DNA of 51,508 bases. Source: an uncultured Candidatus Saccharibacteria bacterium (GTDB lineage: Bacteria; Patescibacteriota; Saccharimonadia; Saccharimonadales; EFPC-124). Both the position numbers and the translations under genes were made by a program. Shown one piece after another: positions 6,254-39,709 of the stretch. Numbering within the stretch: the stretch's first letter is position 1; each line of letters opens with the position of its first letter. The notes under the pieces were generated by a model that had not been told where the DNA came from, made no database searches, and saw nothing but the letters and a program-made list of their open reading frames with translations. Where the stretch lies: NCBI GenBank assembly GCA_964586395.1, contig CAZPGP010000006.1, positions 1-51,508 of the forward strand, in the 5' to 3' direction.

Positions 6254-7330
6254 TTATTGCTTTTCTGCGCCAGCTGCCAGGAGTTCGCGTTCGTATGATT
6301 GGAGTTTTTCGACCAGGTCGTCGATCTCGCCGTTCAATGCGCCGGGGATGTTGCTGCGTGAATAGCCGATGCGGTGGTCGGTGATGCGGTCCTGTGGGAA
6401 GTTATAGGTACGGATTTTTTCAGAGCGGTCACCTGAACCGATAAGGCTTTGGCGCTGCGCGCTGAGCTTGGCTTGTTCGGCTTCGATCTTGATAGCGAGC
6501 AGGCGGGAGCGCAGTACGTTCATAGCCTTTTCTTTGTTTTTGATCTGGGACTTTTCGTCCTGACAGGTCACGACGAGTCCGGTTGGCAGGTGAGTGATGC
6601 GTACTGCGGAGTCGGTGGTGTTGACCGACTGACCACCGTGACCGCTACTGCGGTAAACGTCAACGCGCAGGTCGTTCTGGTTGATTTGGACGTCTGCTTC
6701 CTCGGCCTCGGGCATGATTGCGACGGTCACGGTCGATGTGTGAATACGGCCGGAACTTTCAGTTGCAGGCACACGCTGAACACGATGGACGCCGGATTCG
6801 AACTTGAATGTTCGATAGGTGTCGACGCCTTTAACGCCAAAGATAATTTCTTTGAAGCCGCCGACGTCGCTCGGGCTATCGCTGATGTGCTCGACGCGGA
6901 AATCGTGTGTTTCGGCATAGCGGACGTACATACGGTAAAGTTCAGCCGCGAAGAGTGATGCCTCGTCGCCGCCAGCGCCGGCGCGGATTTCAATCACGAC
7001 GTCTTTTTCGTCGTTGGGGTCCTTTGGCGTGAGGAGAATGAAGAGCTCTTCGTCGATGCGCGTGAGTTCGTCCTCAAGCTCTGGGATTTCTAGCTTGGCG
7101 AGGTCGGCGAGCTCGCCATCATCGGAGCCTACGAGTTCGTGGGCTTCATTGAGCTGCTTCTTGAGCTCGTCCTTGCGGGCGGCAATGCTGATAATTTTGT
7201 CCAGCTCGGTGAGCCGGCGAGTCTTCTTGGCATAGTCGGGGTCAGAGAAGGCGTTCGGAGTGCTCAAAAAAGCCTCGAGACTAACTTTCTCGGTTTGAAG
7301 CCCCTCTAGGTTGAGGTTGATAGTTGCCAT
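6254..7330 (-). CDS. prfA: Peptide chain release factor 1
   Basis: GGQ loop ([19 protein letters not shown]) and the RF1-specific P-A-T tripeptide (RVPATES). Confidence 0.95.
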
Positions 7331-7366
7331 TTACCGTATGCCCCCGGACTCGGCTTCCGCCTGAAG

Positions 7367-7696
7367 TTATTCTTCGCTGGTGTCAGCTTTTTTGGCGACC
7401 TTAGCGGCGGCCTTCTTAGCCTTGCTGGCCAGAGCGGACTTGCGGGCCTCGGCAGCTTCGGCGCGAGCCTTGAAGCGGTCAACGCGACCTTCGGTGTCGA
7501 GAAGCTTTTCCTTACCAGTGTAGAACGGGTGAGAAGCGCTACTAATGTGCACCTGAACGAGTGGGTATTCGTTGCCATCTTCCCACTTGATAGTTTGGTC
7601 TGCTTTAGCAGTTGAGCTGGTCAAAAAGGCAAAACCAGCAGCAGCGTCCTGGAAGACGACTGGGCGATAATCGGTTGGATGTAGATCTTTTTTCAT
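7367..7696 (-). CDS. rpmE: 50S ribosomal protein L31 (type B, no CxxC) with a Lys/Ala-rich C-terminal tail
   Basis: Has [17 protein letters not shown] and [11 protein letters not shown]. Carries an extra ~35-aa tail, [36 protein letters not shown]. Confidence 0.8.
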
Positions 7697-7915: not shown

Positions 7916-8644
7916 ATGGCAGTAGCTGTAGATATCAAGGCTTTGCTGGCCAGCGGTGCTCACTTTGGGCACAAGACCAGCCGATGGCACCCTAAGATGG
8001 CACCTTACATTCACAGTAAGCGTGCTGGAACTCACATTATTGACCTGACCAAGACCGTTGAAGGTCTGGAAAAGTCACTTGCCTTCATTGAGAAGGAAGT
8101 TGCTTCTGGCAAGCAAGTTCTCTTTGTTGGTACAAAGCGACAGGCTAAGGACATCTTGAAGGCAGCAGCCGAGGACGTCAAGATGCCTTTCGTTACCGAG
8201 CGCTGGATGGGCGGTATGCTCACCAACGTTAAGACAATCAGCGAGCGTGTTAAGCGCCTCAAGAACCTCGAAACTCGCATGGCAAGTGGCGAACTTGCTG
8301 CACGATACAACAAGCTCGAGGTACAGCGCTTCCAAGAAGAGATCGACGACTTGAACTTCAAGTACGGCGGCATCAAGGACATGAACGGCCAGCCTGGCGC
8401 TATGTTTGTTGTAGACGTTGTTGCTGAAGAAAACGCTGTTAAGGAAGCTCGCCGCTTGGGTATCCCAGTGGTAGCTATCGTTGACACCAACGCAAACCCA
8501 GATGTAGCCGACTACATCATTCCTGCAAACGACGACGCCATCAAGGCTGTCCAGTTGCTCACTGATTACGTTAAGCAAGCAGTTACTGAAGGCGTTGCGG
8601 CTCGAAAGGCTGCCGCTCCTGCAGCTGCCAAAGAGGAGAAGTAG
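7916..8644 (+). CDS. rpsB: 30S ribosomal protein S2
   Basis: Canonical N-terminus LLASGAHFGHKTSRWHPKM, plus RWMGGMLTN and VVAIVDTNANPD. Confidence 0.95.
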   Translation: MAVAVDIKALLASGAHFGHKTSRWHPKMAPYIHSKRAGTHIIDLTKTVEGLEKSLAFIEKEVASGKQVLFVGTKRQAKDILKAAAEDVKMPFVTERWMGGMLTNVKTISERVKRLKNLETRMASGELAARYNKLEVQRFQEEIDDLNFKYGGIKDMNGQPGAMFVVDVVAEENAVKEARRLGIPVVAIVDTNANPDVADYIIPANDDAIKAVQLLTDYVKQAVTEGVAARKAAAPAAAKEEK

Positions 8645-8647
8645 TAG

Positions 8648-9247
8648 ATGGGTGCAATTTCACTCGACGAAGTAAAGCGACTTAAAGAGTTGACTGGTGT
8701 TGGTCTGACCGACGCTAAGGTTGCTCTGACCGAAGCTGAAGGCGACTTTGACAAGGCGCTCGAAGCTATGCGCAAGAAGGGCATGACCCGCGCCGAAAAG
8801 AAGGGCGAGCGTGAAGCTCGCGAGGGTCTCGTGGACAGCTACGTTCACGGCGGCCGTATCGGTGTTATCCTCGAAGTTAACTGTGAGACCGACTTTGTCG
8901 CTCGCACCGACGACTTCAAGAACCTGGTACACGACGTTGCTATGCACATCGCTGCAAGTGCGCCTGAATTTGCAAGCGTCGAGGAAATTCCTGCTGACGT
9001 TCGCGAAGCTAAGAAGGCAGAGTTTGTAGAGAAGGCAAAGAACGACGGCAAGCCAGACACCATGCTCGAGCAAATCGCAGACGGCATGCTGAAGAAGTAC
9101 CTTGCCGAGAAGACTCTGACCGAGCAGCCATACATCAAGAATCCTGACCAGACTGTTGGCGACTACGTCAAAGAGCACATTGCTCGTCTGGGCGAGAACA
9201 TTGTTGTTCGCCAGTTCAAGCGCATCGAGCTTGGCGTTAGCGAATAA
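8648..9247 (+). CDS. tsf: Elongation factor Ts (short form)
   Basis: UBA-like N-terminus VKRLKELTGVGLTDAKVALTEAEGDFDKALEAMRKKG and the motif NCETDFVAR. Follows rpsB. Confidence 0.9.
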   Translation: MGAISLDEVKRLKELTGVGLTDAKVALTEAEGDFDKALEAMRKKGMTRAEKKGEREAREGLVDSYVHGGRIGVILEVNCETDFVARTDDFKNLVHDVAMHIAASAPEFASVEEIPADVREAKKAEFVEKAKNDGKPDTMLEQIADGMLKKYLAEKTLTEQPYIKNPDQTVGDYVKEHIARLGENIVVRQFKRIELGVSE

Positions 9248-9265: not shown

Positions 9266-9304
9266 AAAAAGAAGTCGCGAGTGATCGCGGCTTCTTTGTT
9301 TTTG
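9266..9304 (+). terminator. Intrinsic terminator of rpsB-tsf
   Basis: Stem GAAGTCGCGA-gtga-TCGCGGCTTC, flanked by an A-run upstream and TTTGTTTTT downstream. Confidence 0.6.
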
Positions 9305-9315
9305 TGTTCAAGTAG
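9303..9315 (+). repeat. Degenerate copy of the cassette junction motif (TGTGTTCAAGTAG)
   Basis: Shares GTTCAAGT with the junction at 27434-27441 and holds the same position, between a native terminator and the cassette hairpin. Weak match. Confidence 0.25.
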
Positions 9316-9330
9316 TGTGGAGCTTGCCCG

Positions 9331-9372
9331 CCGGACGCCACTACCCATGCAGTCGCAGAGTAGGGCGCCCGG
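9331..9372 (-). terminator. GC-rich hairpin downstream of cassette gene A1
   Basis: CCGGACGCC..CTAC pairs with GTAG..GGCGCCCGG (one mismatch). Lies 25 nt past the stop at 9397. No U-tract. Confidence 0.4.
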
Positions 9373-9396
9373 CCGAGCAGTTCTCGTTGGAGTTGC

Positions 9397-9981
9397 TCAC
9401 CGAGTGGGCAGCAGGCAGGTTGCCAGGCTGCTGATGCGGCCACCTGGTACCGAGTCCCGGCGAATTTCATCCGGGCTCACGAACTGGATCTTGGGCGACG
9501 CCTTGAGCTTGGCCAGCACCGCAGCGGGCAGACCGATGTCGAAGATCTCGACCAGGTACAGAGTGTCCTGGACCGCGACGCCGCTGGGGCTTTGACCACG
9601 GTGCTGGACACGTCCCCTGAGTCGCTGGGTCAGGTGCCTGGCTTCGGCCGACGTCAGAACGTGGCTCCGGTCGATGAGCTGTTCGAACAGGGAGCGCAGC
9701 ACTCCGGTCTCCCGGAGCTGACGCGTTCCGAACCAGGTGACGACGTTGTCGACTCGAGCCACAGGCACAGTGAACCGAAGGTCGGATCGGCCCTCGGGCT
9801 GTGCCGCTCCGCAGTGCGTGGCCAGATAGTCCCAGCCGGTGGTGCTTTGGAGCGACCCGCCAAGTGGTCGCAGGAAGGTCTGGCCTTCTTTGGTCGTGAC
9901 GTAGAGCGCCAGGTTGCCTGCATCGTCCTTGATGCCGGCGAGCCCGGCGCAACTTACTCGGATTCTCGTGCCCGTACCCAT
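9397..9981 (-). CDS. GC-rich orphan protein A1 (paralog of 10173-10799; Nudix-fold-like N-terminus with a degenerate Nudix box)
   Basis: Start moved to ATG 9981, preceded by GGAGGTGG and a TTGTCA-16-TATAAT promoter. Third codon positions are almost all G/C. Shares the blocks RVSCxG, PxGGxL, LRFxVP, NVVxWFxTR, TLYLxE and DEIR with A2. Confidence 0.55.
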   Translation of the reverse strand: MGTGTRIRVSCAGLAGIKDDAGNLALYVTTKEGQTFLRPLGGSLQSTTGWDYLATHCGAAQPEGRSDLRFTVPVARVDNVVTWFGTRQLRETGVLRSLFEQLIDRSHVLTSAEARHLTQRLRGRVQHRGQSPSGVAVQDTLYLVEIFDIGLPAAVLAKLKASPKIQFVSPDEIRRDSVPGGRISSLATCLLPTR

Positions 9982-10030
9982 GATCAAGCCACCTCCGGTG
10001 GGGGAGTATTGCCAACAAGAACAAGGATTC

Positions 10031-10058
10031 ATTATATGTGTGTAACATTTTGTGACAA
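10031..10058 (-). promoter_or_regulatory. Sigma70-type promoter of cassette gene A1
   Basis: On the minus strand: TTGTCA (10058-10053), 16-nt spacer, TATAAT (10036-10031). Sits in a short AT-rich spacer between two GC-rich ORFs. Confidence 0.5.
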
Positions 10059-10172
10059 TCTTGAAATTATTGGGCGAAGTTGTCGGGTATAATATCTTGC
10101 GCGTTGAGTGGGGTCTCGCGCCAGATGGCGCCCGGCGAGTGGCTCGGGCACCATCTGGGCGGTGTGTTCTCG

Positions 10173-10799
10173 TCAACCTCTCGGGATCGTCTCGCTCGGA
10201 CGCAAGAGCGAAGCGGCGATGGGGTGGATGGGCGCGTCGTTGATCTCCAGCTTCTTGGCTCGGATCTCGTCAGCCGTGGCGAAACGGAAGTGCGACCGCC
10301 GTGCCACGGACTGCTGTCGCAACACGCGCATCGCCGCAGCCGGCACGGTGACCACGTACAGCTCGATCAAGTACAGCGTGTTGCGCTCATGCACGTTGGT
10401 GCGGAAGGTCTTGCCCGTTCCGCGTGCGAAGCCGGCGAAGCGATCGGTGATGCTGGCCGCCTGGGCGCGAGTGAGCACGCCGGTCTCCTCGAACAGCGCG
10501 TTCCGGAGTACTCGTCCGACTGATGTGTCGCGGTCCTCCCGCGTCTCGAACCAGTCGACGACGTTCGGAACCTGGGATGTCGGCACGGCGAACCGCAACG
10601 CAGCAGCCTGCTCGAAGGTGTCCGTTGGCGCGCCGAACTTCTGCATGAGCTTCGCCATCCCGCGGGCGCTCGCGTGGAGCGCGCCGCCGATCGGCATCAG
10701 GCCCATGTGTGACTCCATGTCGGTCAGTAGGCCGTAGCGCTTGCCATCCTTGAGAATGGCAAAGCCCGGACAGCTGACCCTTGTCATCATCGTTGACAT
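10173..10799 (-). CDS. GC-rich orphan protein A2 (paralog of A1)
   Basis: 208-aa ORF with ATG 10799 preceded by GGGGAG. High GC3. Contains PIGGAL and LFEETGVL, but the spacing does not fit a canonical Nudix box. Confidence 0.6.
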   Translation of the reverse strand: MSTMMTRVSCPGFAILKDGKRYGLLTDMESHMGLMPIGGALHASARGMAKLMQKFGAPTDTFEQAAALRFAVPTSQVPNVVDWFETREDRDTSVGRVLRNALFEETGVLTRAQAASITDRFAGFARGTGKTFRTNVHERNTLYLIELYVVTVPAAAMRVLRQQSVARRSHFRFATADEIRAKKLEINDAPIHPIAASLLRPSETIPRG

Positions 10800-10836
10800 T
10801 CTAACTCCCCGTTGATGGGCTACAGAACAAAAGGCT

Positions 10837-10864
10837 ATTATAATCAGTTATATCAATCTGGCAA
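10837..10864 (-). promoter_or_regulatory. Sigma70-type promoter of cassette gene A2
   Basis: On the minus strand: TTGCCA (10864-10859), 16-nt spacer, TATAAT (10842-10837). Confidence 0.5.
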
Positions 10865-10911
10865 CAGGGTTAGTCTGATATGATAAATAGAGAAGAAACT
10901 TTAGGAGCCGT

Positions 10912-11466
10912 ATGTTCGACACAAATCCATTTGCAGATAAGATGAATCAAGCCTTTGCGCACTTTGAGGAAGACCTCAAAAAGATCCGCACCGGTCGCGC
11001 TCACCCTGGCATGCTAGAGGGGGTAACGGTGGAAGCATACGGCAGCAAGATGCCGCTAAACCAGGTCGCCAACATCGTGGCGCCTGAGCCTCAGCTGCTG
11101 CAGGTGACTCCTTTTGACCCAAGCACGCTGAAGAACGTTGTCGCCGCCATCCGCGACGATCAGAGCCTTGGCTTCAACCCGAGCGACGACGGCCGAATTG
11201 TGCGAATTCCTGTGCCGCCTCTAACCACTGAGCGTCGTCAGCAGATCGCCAAGCAGCTCGGCGAGAAGGTAGAGGACTGCCGCATCGCTCTGCGCAATGT
11301 GCGCCATGATGCCCTCAAAGCTGCCAAGAAAGCCAAGGACGACAAGGCGATTGCCGAGAACGAAGTCCAGCGCGTCGAGCGAGTTGTCGATGACCTCATG
11401 AAGGACATGCAGGGCAAACTCGAAGCTGCAGCCAAGGCCAAAGAAACGGAAATCATGACGATCTAG
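10912..11466 (+). CDS. frr: Ribosome recycling factor
   Basis: 184 aa. Contains LKKIRTGRAHPGMLEGVTVEAYG, PPLTTERRQ and RNVRHDA. Confidence 0.95.
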   Translation: MFDTNPFADKMNQAFAHFEEDLKKIRTGRAHPGMLEGVTVEAYGSKMPLNQVANIVAPEPQLLQVTPFDPSTLKNVVAAIRDDQSLGFNPSDDGRIVRIPVPPLTTERRQQIAKQLGEKVEDCRIALRNVRHDALKAAKKAKDDKAIAENEVQRVERVVDDLMKDMQGKLEAAAKAKETEIMTI

Positions 11467-16132: not shown

Positions 16133-16639
16133 CTAGGCCGTCACGTACCGGTACCCGAACGCGTTCGGGCTGGTGAGTCGCAGCGCGGCCGGGATGGCGA
16201 CGAAGCCGAAGGCCAGGAGGGACTCCAGGACGGAACTGATGCTGATCTTCTGGACGATGAGCAGGCCCACGGTGGTGGTACTGGCCATGGCCACGATCAC
16301 TGCGATCGTCGTCAGCTTGCCCGAGCGACCAGTCCTCGCCATCGGCCGCTTCGCGAAGCTGGTGATGATGATCGCGAGCATGCTGACGATGAACGTCGCC
16401 AGCGCGATCACCGCGACCATGCCGAGGTTTTCCCAGCGCATGTAGTCCTTGATACCGATGAAGCCGAGCACCTCCCGCGTGCCAACGGGGTAGTGGGCGC
16501 CGAAGAAGTTCACGGCCTGGAAGTACGCGAGGGTCATGCCGATGGAGAAGGCGGTCGCCGTAATGGCGTCTGCGATCGCGGCGCGGATTTCACCGTTGTC
16601 GGAGTTGTACTGGCCGCGGATGATGTTGGGGATTCGCAC
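16133..16639 (-). CDS. GC-rich 4-TM membrane protein B1 (orphan)
   Basis: 168 aa. GTG start preceded by AGGAG. Four hydrophobic segments and high GC3. C-terminal NAFGYRYV resembles APIGYRRLGF of B2. Confidence 0.55.
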   Translation of the reverse strand: MRIPNIIRGQYNSDNGEIRAAIADAITATAFSIGMTLAYFQAVNFFGAHYPVGTREVLGFIGIKDYMRWENLGMVAVIALATFIVSMLAIIITSFAKRPMARTGRSGKLTTIAVIVAMASTTTVGLLIVQKISISSVLESLLAFGFVAIPAALRLTSPNAFGYRYVTA

Positions 16640-27501: not shown

Positions 27502-27813
27502 TCAGGGCAGGAACAGCGTGATGTAGCTCACGCCGTGGGCCGGTGGCGCACCCGACTCGGGCTGGTGGAAGAAGCGCAGTCCACGACAGTGGCCTGCAAA
27601 GACGCCGCTCATCACGAACATCAGTGCTTCGACATCGCGCACCGGGTAGCTGCGGTCGTTGCTGAACCGTGGCTTGGTCCAGCAAGCCACCACCAGATGT
27701 CCCTTGGGCAGGCCGGCGGTGAGAGCCTCTAGGGCCTTCGCCGCAGCTGCCGCGTCGCCGGCGATACCTCTCCTGGCATCAGGGTCGGTGGGGAAGCGAT
27801 CAGTGATTTCCAT
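27502..27813 (-). CDS. GC-rich orphan protein C (103 aa)
   Basis: ATG 27813. High GC3. No recognisable motif. Bracketed by its own promoter and hairpin. Confidence 0.5.
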   Translation of the reverse strand: MEITDRFPTDPDARRGIAGDAAAAAKALEALTAGLPKGHLVVACWTKPRFSNDRSYPVRDVEALMFVMSGVFAGHCRGLRFFHQPESGAPPAHGVSYITLFLP

Positions 27814-33248: not shown

Positions 33249-33605
33249 CTACTGCTCGGGGCGCTGACGCTCCTTCGTGATCCGCCTGGTGCGCCGCCCG
33301 GCCTTCTTGTTCTTCGCGATGAACGACACGAAGGCGATGATGACGATTGTGGCCATCGCCGCGATGAACAGGTTCACCAGGAACACCAGTGCTCCGGCCA
33401 GGATCGTGATGAACGGCCGGTCGCCGGTGTTCGAGCCCACCATCATGTTCATGATGGACTCCAACATGCCCAGGAAGGCGATGGAGACGTACGTCGTGAT
33501 GCTCGCGACCGCGAGATCGATGAGCGCCCAGCGCTTCCAGCGGCCCCTGGTCCTCGTCCGTGGACGCGGGGTCTCGTCAGCCGCCGGCTCGGGCAAAGTG
33601 GACAT
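33249..33605 (-). CDS. GC-rich small 2-TM membrane protein D with Arg/Lys-rich termini (orphan)
   Basis: Start moved to ATG 33605, preceded by GGGAGG; the longer ORF to 33662 would run through the -10 box. Two hydrophobic segments. Confidence 0.55.
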   Translation of the reverse strand: MSTLPEPAADETPRPRTRTRGRWKRWALIDLAVASITTYVSIAFLGMLESIMNMMVGSNTGDRPFITILAGALVFLVNLFIAAMATIVIIAFVSFIAKNKKAGRRTRRITKERQRPEQ

Positions 33606-33649
33606 CTGTCCTCCCACATAGTCAGGCCGAATATTCCGAACTAGGGTTG

Positions 33650-33678
33650 ATTCTACAATCATAAAGCCACTATTGCAA
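33650..33678 (-). promoter_or_regulatory. Sigma70-type promoter of cassette gene D
   Basis: On the minus strand: TTGCAA (33678-33673), 17-nt spacer, TAGAAT (33655-33650). Confidence 0.5.
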
Positions 33679-38697: not shown

Positions 38698-38719
38698 TAT
38701 ATAATTGAGCTCGAGCGAA

Positions 38720-38745
38720 GGGTGCCTCTACGGGAGGCCCCTTTT
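38720..38745 (+). terminator. Hairpin plus T-tract between the PcsB-like gene and the gnd-like cassette gene
   Basis: GGGTGCCTC-tacgg-GAGGCCCC followed by TTTT. Could terminate the upstream gene or act as a leader attenuator of the cassette. Confidence 0.45.
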
Positions 38746-38779
38746 AGTTGCTCATCCTTCGACCCGAGAGGGGAACGCA

Positions 38780-39709
38780 ATGCAACTCGGAATGGTGGGC
38801 CTGGGCAAGATGGGCGGCAACATGGTGGCGCGTCTCGTCCGCGATTCCGGCCACGAGGTCGTCGTCTTCGACCGCGAGCCCGATGCCATCACTCGCATTC
38901 AGGAGAGCGGCGTCGGCGTCACCGGTGCTTACTCGCTGGTGCGACTGGTCGAGCGCCTGGAAGCCCCGCGCGTAGTGTGGGTCATGGTGCCGGCCGGACA
39001 GCCGACGGAGTCGACCATCGACGAACTGGCCGACTTGCTGGAGCCGGGCGACGTCATCATCGACGGCGGCAACACCAACTGGCACGACGACACCCGTCGG
39101 CACTCGGTTCTGGCTGAGCGCGGCATCCACTACGTGGACGTCGGCACGTCCGGCGGCGTGCACGGTCTGAACAACGGCTACTGCATGATGGTCGGCGGCG
39201 ACGGCGAGGTCGTCAAGCTCATCGAGCCGATCCTGGACACCCTGGCGCCCGCGCCCAACGCGACGCACGGCCCGGGGTGGCTGCACGTCGGTCCGGCCGG
39301 TGCGGGTCACTACGTCAAGATGGTCCACAACGGCATCGAGTACGGAATGATGCGCGCCATCGCCGAGGGCTTCGGCATCATGGACGCCCACGAGTTCGAC
39401 CTGGATCTGGCCAAGATCGCGCACCTGTGGATGCGCGGCAGCGTGGTGCGGTCCTGGCTGGTTGAGTTGACGGCCGCAGCTCTGGACGCCGAGGGCAACG
39501 ATCTCGCAGGCCTGAAGCCGGTGGTCGCTGACTCGGGTGAGGGCCGCTGGACGGTCGACGAAGCCGTGCGCCTGCGGGTGCCGGCGTACGTGATCGCCGC
39601 GTCGCTGTTCTCGCGGTTCGACTCGCAGGATGGGGGCGACTTCGCTGCCAGGTGCGAGGCCGCACTCCGGGCTCAGTTCGGCGGCCACGCTGTCGTCCGC
39701 AAGGACTGA
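38780..39709 (+). CDS. gnd: 6-phosphogluconate dehydrogenase (decarboxylating), short gnd-like form; GC-rich cassette gene F
   Basis: Contains MQLGMVGLGKMGGNM (Rossmann), IIDGGNT, VDVGTSGGVHG and HYVKMVHNGIEYGMM. Start at ATG 38780 after GAGAGGGGA. GC3 is near saturation. Confidence 0.85.
   Translation: MQLGMVGLGKMGGNMVARLVRDSGHEVVVFDREPDAITRIQESGVGVTGAYSLVRLVERLEAPRVVWVMVPAGQPTESTIDELADLLEPGDVIIDGGNTNWHDDTRRHSVLAERGIHYVDVGTSGGVHGLNNGYCMMVGGDGEVVKLIEPILDTLAPAPNATHGPGWLHVGPAGAGHYVKMVHNGIEYGMMRAIAEGFGIMDAHEFDLDLAKIAHLWMRGSVVRSWLVELTAAALDAEGNDLAGLKPVVADSGEGRWTVDEAVRLRVPAYVIAASLFSRFDSQDGGDFAARCEAALRAQFGGHAVVRKD

What the first reader, a model, noticed from the sequence alone, without database searches (positions are those of the whole stretch)
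9303..10870. Island A: two tandem cassettes encoding paralogous orphan proteins, each with its own promoter
The ORFs 9397-9981 and 10173-10799 (both - strand) share clear sequence blocks: RVSCxG, P(L/I)GGxL, LRFxVP, NVVxWFxTR, (D/N)TLYL(V/I)E and DEIR. A roughly 190-nt segment containing an AT-rich stretch with a TTGTCA-16-TATAAT promoter separates them. A2 has TTGCCA-16-TATAAT.

The N-terminal strand plus PxGG resembles the start of a Nudix fold. However, the Nudix-box glutamates are absent in A1, and the spacing is wrong in A2 (LFEETGVL lies about 65 residues after GG). Degenerate Nudix-like domains have been described in nucleotide-signalling defence contexts, but I cannot assign these proteins.

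The island sits between the tsf terminator and the frr promoter region, splitting the usually tight rpsB-tsf-(pyrH)-frr neighbourhood.
Basis: partly seen in the sequence, partly recalled or inferred. Interest (0 to 1): 0.65.

Follow-up and report, generated by a model that had tools for sequence, protein, structure and literature searches.

The report
Paired degenerate Nudix-fold genes in Saccharibacteria
Two neighbouring genes in a soil Saccharibacterium encode soluble, fast-evolving, probably non-catalytic relatives of the Nudix domain found in CBASS anti-phage effectors; they are inherited vertically at this site in one clade, not recently inserted, and their function is untested.

Summary
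Two minus-strand ORFs, A1 (9397-9981) and A2 (10173-10799), are paralogues (36% identity, E 1e-27). Each has an 11/12 sigma-70-type promoter, a Shine-Dalgarno site and its own 3' hairpin. They lie in a 65% GC stretch between tsf and frr.

They are not orphans. Both score above the Pfam threshold for PF18167 (SMODS-associated NUDIX) and match PADLOC models of CBASS 2TM-NUDIX effectors. AlphaFold models (pLDDT 94) match only Nudix folds.

They differ from those effectors:
- No transmembrane segment.
- No CD-NTase in 51.5 kb.
- Three of the five acidic Nudix-helix residues invariant in intact relatives are lost.
- Strongly basic (pI about 10, against 5.8 for intact relatives).

The "island" is old. 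Every relative with Tsf at least 85% identical carries one or two such genes at the same site. dS is within the range of the flanking genes, and dN/dS is 5-10 times higher. More distant Saccharibacteria have an empty site or unrelated cargo, and pyrH is absent there in all 20 Saccharibacteria loci examined.

Best reading (inferred): non-catalytic binders of an anionic nucleotide-type ligand, in a conflict-related role.

The parts
8648..9247 (+). tsf (EF-Ts), left boundary gene
   Evidence: ORF. PF00889 on the orthologous genes. 85-95% identical in loci that carry the Sa_NUDIX genes.
9268..9297 (.). Bidirectional terminator hairpin shared by the convergent tsf and A1 genes
   Evidence: 13-pair stem followed by a T run on both strands. 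Folds at -16.7 kcal/mol, z -3.4 on the minus strand.
9397..9981 (-). A1: 194-aa soluble Sa_NUDIX paralogue. Nudix helix reads RSLFEQLIDR. pI 9.8.
   Evidence: PF18167 E 4.2e-12, 46.8 bits against cut-off 25. AF2 pLDDT 94.6. Foldseek matches are essentially all Nudix folds. Orthologues P0008-P0013 are 64-92% identical. Net charge +7.
9989..9996 (-). A1 Shine-Dalgarno site GGAGGTGG, 7 nt before the ATG
   Evidence: Read from the sequence. GGAGG is conserved in L001, L007 and L098.
10018..10058 (-). A1 promoter plus conserved leader: TTGTCA (10058-10053), 16 nt, TATAAT (10036-10031), N8, GTTCT (10022-10018)
   Evidence: 11 of 12 consensus matches. TATAAT-N8-GTTCT occurs in the window only at the two genes, 2 found against 0.04 expected. 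It is present upstream of every A1/A2-type gene in the related loci.
10115..10162 (-). Very stable hairpin directly after the A2 stop codon, without a U tract. Probable 3' end or stabiliser of the A2 transcript.
   Evidence: -39.1 kcal/mol, z -6.9. The L001 orthologue folds at -39.2 kcal/mol, z -7.2, with changes that keep the pairing.
10173..10799 (-). A2: 208-aa soluble Sa_NUDIX paralogue. Nudix helix reads RVLRNALFEE. pI 10.1.
   Evidence: PF18167 E 5.1e-11, 43.3 bits against cut-off 25. AF2 pLDDT 94.3. Foldseek matches are essentially all Nudix folds. Orthologues P0002-P0007 are 44-85% identical. Net charge +8.
10805..10810 (-). A2 Shine-Dalgarno-like site GGGGAG, 5 nt before the ATG
   Evidence: Read from the sequence.
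10824..10864 (-). A2 promoter plus conserved leader: TTGCCA (10864-10859), 16 nt, TATAAT (10842-10837), N8, GTTCT (10828-10824). Divergent from frr.
   Evidence: 11 of 12 consensus matches. Motif statistics. Conserved in L001, L005 and L100; L096 has AATAAT-N8-GTTCT.
10912..11466 (+). frr (ribosome recycling factor), right boundary gene
   Evidence: ORF. PF01765 on the orthologues.

Best explanation
A1 and A2 are two old paralogues of the SMODS-associated NUDIX (Sa_NUDIX, PF18167) family. They are inherited vertically in one clade of soil and root Saccharibacteria, at the slot between tsf and frr.

Shown here:
- Both have a Nudix fold.
- Both are soluble stand-alone proteins. They lack the two transmembrane helices of the CBASS effector Cap16 and have no cyclase, reverse transcriptase or other partner nearby.
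- Each is a separate transcription unit, driven by a near-consensus promoter with a leader motif found only at these genes.
- They evolve 5-10 times faster at the protein level than their neighbours but remain under purifying selection.
- One or the other copy has been lost in some lineages.
- Both have lost three of the five acidic residues of the Nudix helix that are invariant in intact relatives, and both have become strongly basic.

Inferred: they no longer hydrolyse a nucleotide. They use the retained pocket (R7, S9, P36-G38-G39, R69, W83-F84, R90, T141-Y143-E146 in A2 numbering) to bind an anionic nucleotide-type ligand, either a second messenger or a nucleic-acid end. They would then act as a sensor or buffer in a conflict-related process, such as phage defence or its regulation. 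The precedent is other catalytically dead Nudix folds (CFIm25, the MutY C-terminal domain, NrtR, AraR), which bind rather than cleave.
For: Family and fold: Pfam PF18167 above threshold for both. PADLOC CBASS 2TM-NUDIX models E 2.6e-12 and 4.6e-11, matching from profile position about 45 onward. AF2 pLDDT 94.3 and 94.6 with the same order of secondary-structure elements. Foldseek PDB hits are essentially all Nudix-fold proteins.

Soluble and stand-alone: no hydrophobic segment outside the fold core. Pfam scans of 30 other window ORFs found no SMODS, CD-NTase, RT or cyclase, and the remaining genes read as housekeeping by synteny. Only housekeeping genes lie within about 5-6 kb in all related loci.

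Degenerate helix: 124 of 174 family sequences keep R-E..E-E. The intact clade has E90, E96, E99, E100 and E104 invariant. A2 keeps only D/E at the first and last of these positions. A1 keeps only the first and third.

Charge reversal: the degenerate clade has net charge +6 to +10 and pI about 10. The 103 intact members average -3.3 with pI 5.8.

Still functional: 16 columns are invariant across 28 sequences. dN/dS is 0.22-0.48. Promoter, leader and hairpin are conserved. The genes are retained in roughly 1-Mb genomes, and the whole tsf-island-frr stretch is intact in contigs about 95% identical from other studies.

Conflict flavour: dN is about 3-10 times that of the flanks at similar dS. Paralogues are lost differentially. 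Family fusions include an Acb1-like 2H phosphoesterase, REC-TCAD9 and a P-loop kinase. Cap16 is a CBASS effector with a NUDIX domain (PMC10419184).
Against: - No ligand, partner or phenotype is known for any stand-alone Sa_NUDIX protein. No family member has a solved structure.
- A2 keeps an E-E-x-G-U stretch at the end of the helix (E104, E105, G107). By helix register this may equal the last part of the canonical Nudix box, so residual catalysis cannot be excluded.
- Some Nudix enzymes work with altered boxes. GDP-mannose mannosyl hydrolase was the top structural hit for A1.
- A raised dN/dS below 1 is equally what relaxed constraint would give.
- The conserved chromosomal position next to housekeeping genes, also seen in Chloroflexota next to dprA, is more typical of a cellular function than of a defence island.
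- No expression data were found.
Confidence: 0.4

Rival explanations
1. A1 and/or A2 are still active Nudix-type hydrolases with a non-canonical catalytic arrangement. They would clear a nucleotide: a signalling molecule, or a salvaged or damaged nucleotide in an organism that imports its nucleotides.
For: The fold is Nudix. A2 retains E104-E105-x-G107-V at the helix end and the A2 clade keeps E105 throughout. Most of the family has an intact box. A relative at the same locus (P0017, L096) is intact. A family fusion to an Acb1-like phosphodiesterase suggests nucleotide processing.
Against: Three of the five acidic positions invariant in intact members are replaced by V/N/A in A2 and S/Q/R in A1. 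The replacements differ between the paralogues and drift within each clade. The shift of about 10 charge units to pI 10 is not expected for a metal-dependent pyrophosphatase that keeps its substrate.
Confidence: 0.2
2. They are effectors or sensors of a CBASS-like (or RT-based DRT) defence system whose signal generator is encoded elsewhere in the genome.
For: The best PADLOC hits are CBASS '2TM' effector models, plus the DRT RTasNUDIX model. The Pfam family is named for its association with SMODS cyclases. Evolution is fast and copy number varies.
Against: There is no transmembrane module, and in Cap16-type effectors that module is the killing part. No CD-NTase or RT was found among the window ORFs scanned, and none lies within about 5-6 kb in any related locus. 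Stand-alone relatives in Chloroflexota also lack a cyclase neighbour. The rest of the genome could not be scanned.
Confidence: 0.12
3. The segment is a recently acquired genomic island from a high-GC donor, for example an actinobacterial host of the epibiont.
For: GC is 0.65 against about 0.54 and GC3 up to 0.84. The tsf-frr slot is a variable hotspot in Saccharibacteria. Other high-GC3 ORFs are scattered through the window.
Against: Orthologues sit at the same site in every relative with Tsf of 85% or more. Their dS (0.58-1.09) lies within the range of the flanks, so they diverged together with the chromosome. The high GC3 is maintained in all orthologues. There are no direct repeats, integrase or tRNA at the borders. 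The two named closest relatives are Saccharimonadales or Chromulinivoraceae; the others carry no taxon name. An ancient acquisition by the clade ancestor remains possible.
Confidence: 0.08
4. They are decaying pseudo-enzymes under relaxed selection, with no remaining function.
For: Catalytic residues are lost. dN/dS is raised. One copy is lost in several lineages. An extremely degenerate second copy exists in L096.
Against: dN/dS is still 0.22-0.48, well below 1, after dS of 0.6-1.1. The reading frames are intact. 16 invariant columns are shared with distant relatives. AF2 models are confident. Near-consensus promoters, SD sites, a leader motif and a hairpin with pairing-preserving changes are all conserved. 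The genes are retained in strongly reduced genomes.
Confidence: 0.1

Closest known systems
Pfam PF18167 Sa_NUDIX (SMODS-associated NUDIX domain). From my own knowledge, it was defined computationally by Burroughs et al. 2015 (NAR 43:10633); that paper could not be opened here.
   Same: Both proteins match the model over nearly its whole length, above the curated threshold. They share the family hallmarks: N-terminal R-[VI]-S-C strand, P-x-G-G, L-R-x-x-x-P, W-F, R-E/D, T-x-Y-x-x-E. They also share the roughly 50-residue insert between PxGG and the Nudix helix.
   Different: There is no association with a SMODS/CD-NTase gene. Three of the five conserved acidic residues of the Nudix helix are lost, and the net charge is reversed.
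Cap16, the CBASS 2TM-NUDIX membrane effector (review PMC10419184, citing Duncan-Lowey et al. 2021)
   Same: Homologous NUDIX domain: PADLOC PDLC00693 E 2.6e-12 and 4.6e-11, aligned to profile positions about 45-230 of 243.
   Different: The N-terminal transmembrane part of the profile is not matched and no TM helix is present. There is no CD-NTase operon. Membrane disruption by oligomerising TM helices therefore cannot be the mode of action.
Non-catalytic Nudix-fold binding proteins: CFIm25, MutY C-terminal domain, NrtR/AraR ligand-binding domains
   Same: Nudix fold with missing catalytic glutamates. CFIm25, AraR and MutY are among the structural matches. The basic charge is compatible with binding nucleic acid or polyphosphate.
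   Different: There is no detectable sequence relationship. Structural similarity is weak (TM 0.2-0.5). No DNA-binding wHTH domain is fused as in NrtR/AraR. The analogy is in mechanism only.
Stand-alone intact-box Sa_NUDIX proteins of about 200 aa: other Saccharibacteria such as P0017 and P0032 (Chromulinivoraceae), Chloroflexota such as Aggregatilinea lenta P0025, and one 634-kb phage
   Same: Same size and architecture. P0017 sits at the same tsf-frr site. These also have no cyclase neighbour.
   Different: They keep R-E-[LVI]-x-E-E-L-x-x-E and are acidic (pI about 5.8). The window proteins form a separate 'degenerate, basic' superclade in which A1-type and A2-type are sister groups.

Membership tests
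Pfam PF18167 Sa_NUDIX | Whole-protein score above the curated gathering threshold (25 bits) | tested here: met
   A1 46.8 bits, A2 43.3 bits, covering profile positions 1-179 of 199.
Pfam PF18167 Sa_NUDIX | Nudix alpha/beta/alpha fold | tested here: met
   AF2 pLDDT 94.3 and 94.6. The listed Foldseek PDB matches are essentially all Nudix-fold proteins, but weak (best E about 3e-3, TM 0.35-0.5).
Pfam PF18167 Sa_NUDIX | Conserved acidic Nudix-helix residues (R-E-U-x-E-E-L-x-x-E in the family) | tested here: not met
   Intact in 124 of 174 family sequences. A2 reads R-V-L-R-N-A-L-F-E-E and A1 reads R-S-L-F-E-Q-L-I-D-R.
Pfam PF18167 Sa_NUDIX | Genomic association with a SMODS/CD-NTase nucleotide synthetase | tested here: not met
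   None found among the window ORFs scanned; the rest are housekeeping by synteny. None within about 5-6 kb in the related Saccharibacteria loci or in two Chloroflexota loci. The rest of the genome was not testable.
CBASS Cap16-type 2TM-NUDIX effector | N-terminal two-pass transmembrane module | tested here: not met
   PADLOC matches start at profile position about 45. The maximum 19-residue hydropathy of 1.6 lies in a core beta-strand.
CBASS Cap16-type 2TM-NUDIX effector | Operon with a CD-NTase | tested here: not met
   The neighbours are rpsB, tsf, frr, uppS, rseP, a CPBP protease, proS and greA.
CBASS Cap16-type 2TM-NUDIX effector | Homologous NUDIX sensor domain | tested here: met
   PDLC00693 E 2.6e-12 (A1) and 4.6e-11 (A2).
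Canonical Nudix hydrolase (PF00293) | Nudix box G-x5-E-x7-R-E-U-x-E-E-x-G-U | tested here: not met
   PF00293 does not hit even at E up to 10. About 50 residues separate PxGG from the helix. Only E-E-x-G-V survives in A2 and nothing comparable in A1.
DRT RT-associated NUDIX (PADLOC PDLC03809) | Adjacent defence reverse transcriptase | tested here: not met
   The HMM hit is weak (E 1e-6 to 5e-6). No RT was found among the window ORFs scanned or in the related loci.
Mobile genomic island | Integrase or transposase, flanking direct repeats or a tRNA target | tested here: not met
   No significant flanking repeats. No such gene in the locus or in the orthologous loci.
Mobile genomic island | Patchy presence among close relatives, with an empty site | tested here: not met
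   Present in all eight kinds of locus with Tsf 85-95% identical, and in contigs about 95% identical from other studies. Empty sites occur only in species with Tsf of 74% or less.
Mobile genomic island | Deviant base composition | tested here: met
   GC 0.65 against about 0.54 and GC3 0.76-0.84 against 0.55-0.68. The deviation is equally present in all orthologues.

The most novel reading that the evidence does not exclude
The basic, box-degenerate A1/A2-type proteins are a cellular invention of an epibiotic CPR lineage: a former nucleotide-signal hydrolase turned into a high-abundance 'sponge' or nucleic-acid/nucleotide-end binder. It would intercept immune second messengers, or mark RNA/DNA ends, in the conflict between the Saccharibacterium, its phages and possibly its host. 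That would make it a chromosomal counterpart of phage sponge proteins, built on a Nudix fold and diversifying by duplication and rapid evolution.
Probability: 0.12. Interest if true: 0.8.

Novelty: new variant of a known kind. Interest (0 to 1): 0.42.

Why it matters
Sa_NUDIX is a computationally defined domain. The only experimentally touched form found here is the membrane effector Cap16, where mutating the NUDIX domain did not abolish toxicity (PMC10419184), so what the domain does is still open.

This locus gives a clean natural experiment. Within one syntenic site there is an intact, acidic form (P0017 in L096) and two derived, basic paralogues without the catalytic glutamates. All are soluble and small enough for direct biochemistry.

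Finding what they bind would say what the Sa_NUDIX pocket recognises. It would also show whether strongly reduced episymbiotic bacteria keep 'partial' immune modules for a purpose.

The result also corrects the island reading. The compositional anomaly is stable and inherited, which is a caution against using GC deviation alone as evidence of recent transfer.

Tried and rejected
1. LexA/Cheo-box reading of the A1 leader (GAAT-N4-GTTC). The pattern occurs 4 times in the window against 3.55 expected, and the left half-site is absent at A2-type genes. Rejected.
2. Recent horizontal transfer. Rejected on synteny and dS.
3. Phage origin or a phage counter-defence gene. Only one weak hit in 50,697 phage records (a 634-kb phage, 26% identity), none with an intact-box query, none in plasmids, and only generic Nudix folds in BFVD.
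4. A remnant of a lost paralogue in the single-copy loci, or extra copies elsewhere. A six-frame HMM search found none.
5. Wider context survey with the search for related loci on alignments A2 and A4, in the viral and metagenome collections.
6. Expression evidence. Only DNA or untyped runs (mostly soil, root and groundwater metagenomes) hold the sequence.
7. 'Joints' skipping the island in read laying (8775>11433 and 9179>11421). They rest on 33-43 letters of other species' contigs at 85% likeness and join the inside of tsf to the 3' end of frr. Judged to be alignment artefacts.
8. NCBIfam has no model for these proteins. The PDB has no sequence relative.
9. The founding paper of the family could not be opened. 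Statements about it are from memory and are marked as such.
Full report
**1. What is there**

The window is a 55% GC stretch of a core chromosome. Its closest relatives are Candidatus Saccharimonadales / Saccharibacteria MAGs. The sequence is held by soil and root metagenome runs.

The gene order is rpsB (7916-8644), tsf (8648-9247), a hairpin (9268-9297), A1 (9397-9981, minus strand), A2 (10173-10799, minus strand), then frr (10912-11466), uppS and rseP. The 9268-9297 hairpin has T runs on both strands, so it can terminate both tsf and the convergent A1.

Each gene has:
- a promoter with 11 of 12 consensus matches;
- a Shine-Dalgarno site.

A2 is followed directly by a -39 kcal/mol hairpin (z -6.9). 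The hairpin is kept in the orthologous locus L001 with changes that preserve pairing.

The two genes are therefore separate transcription units.

**2. What the proteins are**

They are not orphans.
- Both score above the curated threshold for Pfam PF18167, the SMODS-associated NUDIX domain (46.8 and 43.3 bits against 25).
- Both match PADLOC models of CBASS '2TM' effectors (best E 2.6e-12) and, more weakly, the RT-associated NUDIX of DRT systems.
- The PADLOC alignments start at about profile position 45, so the transmembrane part is missing. Hydropathy shows no TM helix.
- AlphaFold2 with a 28-sequence alignment gives pLDDT 94.3 (A2) and 94.6 (A1), with the same order of strands and helices.
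- Foldseek against the PDB returns essentially only Nudix-fold proteins for both, at weak scores (E about 3e-3, TM 0.35-0.5).
- No family member has a solved structure, and NCBIfam has no model.

An exhaustive profile search of 1.84 billion representatives finds 558 clusters (242 at E of 1e-10 or better). Nearly all are stand-alone proteins of 190-220 aa. A few are fusions: to an Acb1-like 2H phosphoesterase, to REC + TCAD9, to a P-loop kinase/AAA domain and to a PLP decarboxylase.

**3. The Nudix helix is degenerate and the charge is reversed**

In the family, the helix after the conserved R-E/D reads R-E-[LVI]-x-E-E-L-[VI]-x-E-[TS]-G. Of the 174 sequences compared, 124 keep R, E, E, E. In an 18-sequence alignment of intact members, E90, E96, E99, E100 and E104 are invariant.

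| | Sequence at these positions | Acidic positions kept (of 5) |
|---|---|---|
| A2 | R-D ... R-V-L-R-N-A-L-F-E-E | first (as D) and last |
| A1 | R-E ... R-S-L-F-E-Q-L-I-D-R | first and third |

All A1-type and A2-type orthologues are degenerate in the same way, with further drift.

By helix register it may correspond to the E-E-x-G-U end of the canonical box.

The long PxGG-to-helix spacing is a family-wide insert, not a defect of A2.

The degenerate clade is also strongly basic: net charge +6 to +10 and pI about 10. The 103 intact members average -3.3 with median pI 5.8. That is far more than the loss of three glutamates explains.

Sixteen columns stay invariant across both kinds, including R7, S9, P36, G38, G39, R69, P73, W83, F84, R90, T141, Y143 and E146 in A2 numbering. 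I take these to be the ligand pocket. This is an inference, because the model coordinates could not be inspected.

**4. Not a recent island**

Every related locus found through the homologues has the same arrangement, rpsB-tsf-[Sa_NUDIX]-frr-uppS-rseP (identities are to the window's proteins):

| Loci | Content between frr and tsf | Tsf identity | Sa_NUDIX identity |
|---|---|---|---|
| L001-L004 | two genes | 95% | A2 78-79%, A1 73-74% |
| L007-L009, L098/L099 | A1-type only | 92% (L007-L009) | A1 66% (L007-L009), about 51% (L098/L099) |
| L005/L006, L100/L101 | A2-type only | 88% (L005/L006) | A2 43% (L005/L006), 48% (L100/L101) |
| L096/L097 | an intact-box gene plus a barely recognisable 179-aa relative | 85% | A2 38%, A1 28% |

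Contigs about 95% identical to the window, from root and soil studies, span the whole tsf-to-frr stretch with only 1-2-bp indels.

Nei-Gojobori estimates, window against L001:

| | dN | dS | dN/dS |
|---|---|---|---|
| A2 | 0.14 | 0.64 | 0.22 |
| A1 | 0.20 | 0.58 | 0.34 |
| Ten flanking genes | 0.012-0.051 | 0.28-1.20 | 0.027-0.127 |

The same pattern holds against L007 (A1 dN/dS 0.36) and L005 (A2 dN/dS 0.48).

The genes therefore diverged together with the chromosome, but their proteins change 5-10 times faster. They remain under purifying selection.

A neighbour-joining tree places the A1-type and A2-type groups as sisters inside a single degenerate-box superclade, apart from the intact-box clades. 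The simplest history is an intact enzyme at this site, then loss of the box, duplication including the promoter, and differential loss of one copy.

No repeats, integrase or tRNA flank the segment.

**5. The site itself**

In 51 of 51 non-Saccharibacteria loci retrieved with Tsf, a 237-241-aa pyrH-like ORF fills a 728-1150-bp gap between tsf and frr.

Of 22 Saccharibacteria species representatives (Tsf 51-74% identical), 20 were informative:
- None has pyrH in the gap, and none has a Sa_NUDIX gene.
- Nine have tsf and frr 46-108 bp apart. These are the empty sites.
- Eleven have longer gaps. Nine of these hold unrelated ORFs: recF-like, a HAD hydrolase, an amino-acid-kinase-family gene, and several ORFs of unknown family.

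The genes therefore occupy a slot vacated by pyrH that serves as a variable region in this group. They do not split a tight operon.

**6. Regulation**

The promoter, and a motif 8 nt downstream of the -10 hexamer (TATAAT-N8-GTTCT), are conserved upstream of every A1-type and A2-type gene, in paralogues and orthologues alike. The rest of the spacer diverges.

In the window this pattern occurs only at these two genes: 2 found against 0.04 expected. This suggests common control, or a constrained start of the transcript. A LexA-box reading was tested and is not supported.

**7. Context outside the clade**

- Stand-alone intact-box relatives in Chloroflexota sit at a conserved position next to dprA, again without a cyclase.
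- One 634-kb uncultured phage encodes a 203-aa intact-box member.
- Other phage and plasmid searches found nothing, and BFVD gave only generic Nudix folds.
- Pfam scans of 30 other ORFs of the window found no SMODS, CD-NTase, RT or cyclase.

**8. Mechanism**

Shown: family membership, fold, solubility, separate transcription units, loss of acidic helix residues, charge reversal, vertical inheritance, fast but constrained evolution, and absence of a nearby partner.

Inferred: the proteins bind rather than hydrolyse an anionic nucleotide-type ligand and act as a sensor or buffer in a conflict-related process. The precedent is catalytically dead Nudix folds that bind RNA, DNA lesions or metabolites. 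Several of these (CFIm25, MutY, AraR) are among the structural matches. I put this at about 0.4.

Rivals:
- Residual hydrolase activity (0.2). A2 keeps E-E-x-G-V.
- A split CBASS/DRT-type system with the generator elsewhere (0.12).
- Functionless decay (0.1).
- Transfer from a high-GC donor (0.08, and then only as an ancient event).

**9. Comparison and novelty**

The proteins are members of PF18167 by score and fold. They fail two features of the family as described: the conserved acidic helix and the association with SMODS. They also fail both features that define Cap16-type effectors: the 2TM module and the CD-NTase operon.

I therefore file them as a new variant of a known kind: a basic, box-degenerate, duplicated, chromosomally fixed stand-alone form in one Saccharibacteria clade.

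**10. Unexplained**

- GC3 stays at 0.76-0.85 in all orthologues despite dS of about 0.6-1.1.
- The role of the conserved leader motif is unknown.
- The purpose of the charge reversal is unknown.
- The A2 3' hairpin has no U tract.

**11. Verdict**

This is a real and well-defined pair of genes. They are more ordinary than an 'orphan island' but more interesting than a housekeeping Nudix enzyme. Interest 0.42.

Noticed in passing
window 16133-16639(-), 27502-27813(-), 33249-33662(-), 38705-39709(+): Other ORFs with clearly raised GC and GC3 (0.75-0.92 against about 0.62) are scattered in the window. 38705-39709 is a 6-phosphogluconate-dehydrogenase-like NAD-binding protein. 16133-16639 and 27502-27813 have no Pfam hit, and 33249-33662 has only weak sub-threshold hits. 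This genome may have a stable high-GC class of accessory genes.
   Followed up: partly
L010-L031, gap between tsf and frr (for example L016:5660-6742, L017:5643-9094, L013:5607-6326, L010:5733-8171): In Saccharibacteria the tsf-frr slot lacks pyrH and is a variable region: 9 loci are empty and 11 have longer gaps, 9 of them with unrelated ORFs (recF-like, HAD hydrolase, an amino-acid-kinase-family gene, several ORFs of unknown family). In L010 a 186-aa ORF with a Nudix-box-like stretch but no Pfam hit precedes the kinase-family gene.
   Followed up: partly
L096:7751-8290 (also L097:4554-5093): The second gene at the same site in a relative with Tsf 85% identical is a 179-aa protein. Only its ends still match the family profile (E 3e-5). 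It looks like an extremely diverged A1-position paralogue next to an intact-box gene (P0017).
   Followed up: partly
L102:4950-5561 (LR745206.1, 634,780-bp uncultured phage): A huge phage encodes a stand-alone 203-aa Sa_NUDIX with an intact R-E-V-x-E-E-L-x-x-E helix, among ORFs that look aminoacyl-tRNA-synthetase-like by eye. It was the only hit in 50,697 phage records.
   Followed up: partly
proteins P0168, P0094, P0142, P0170 (no window coordinates): Family fusions: Acb1-like 2H phosphoesterase + Sa_NUDIX, REC + TCAD9 + Sa_NUDIX, P-loop kinase/AAA + Sa_NUDIX, and PLP decarboxylase + Sa_NUDIX. The Acb1-like fusion hints at stepwise degradation of cyclic oligonucleotides.
   Followed up: no
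L090-L095, gene at 7001-7645: In Chloroflexota (Aggregatilinea lenta and related metagenome contigs) the stand-alone intact-box Sa_NUDIX lies at a conserved position near dprA. DUF3048, PatA_N and a small GTPase lie downstream, and there is no cyclase.
   Followed up: no
window 10018-10036 and 10824-10842 (minus strand): The motif TATAAT-N8-GTTCT is specific to the two genes in the window and conserved upstream of all their orthologues. It may be an operator or a constrained transcript start.
   Followed up: partly
window 9237-9246: In the soil and root runs, contigs of co-occurring relatives match tsf up to its end and then run on into unrelated AT-rich sequence. This agrees with different content downstream of tsf in other Saccharibacteria in the same samples.
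   Followed up: no
L007:4903-5853: frr is called as 316 aa in this record although only 184 aa match Frr. The start is probably over-extended into the frr/Sa_NUDIX intergenic region.
   Followed up: no
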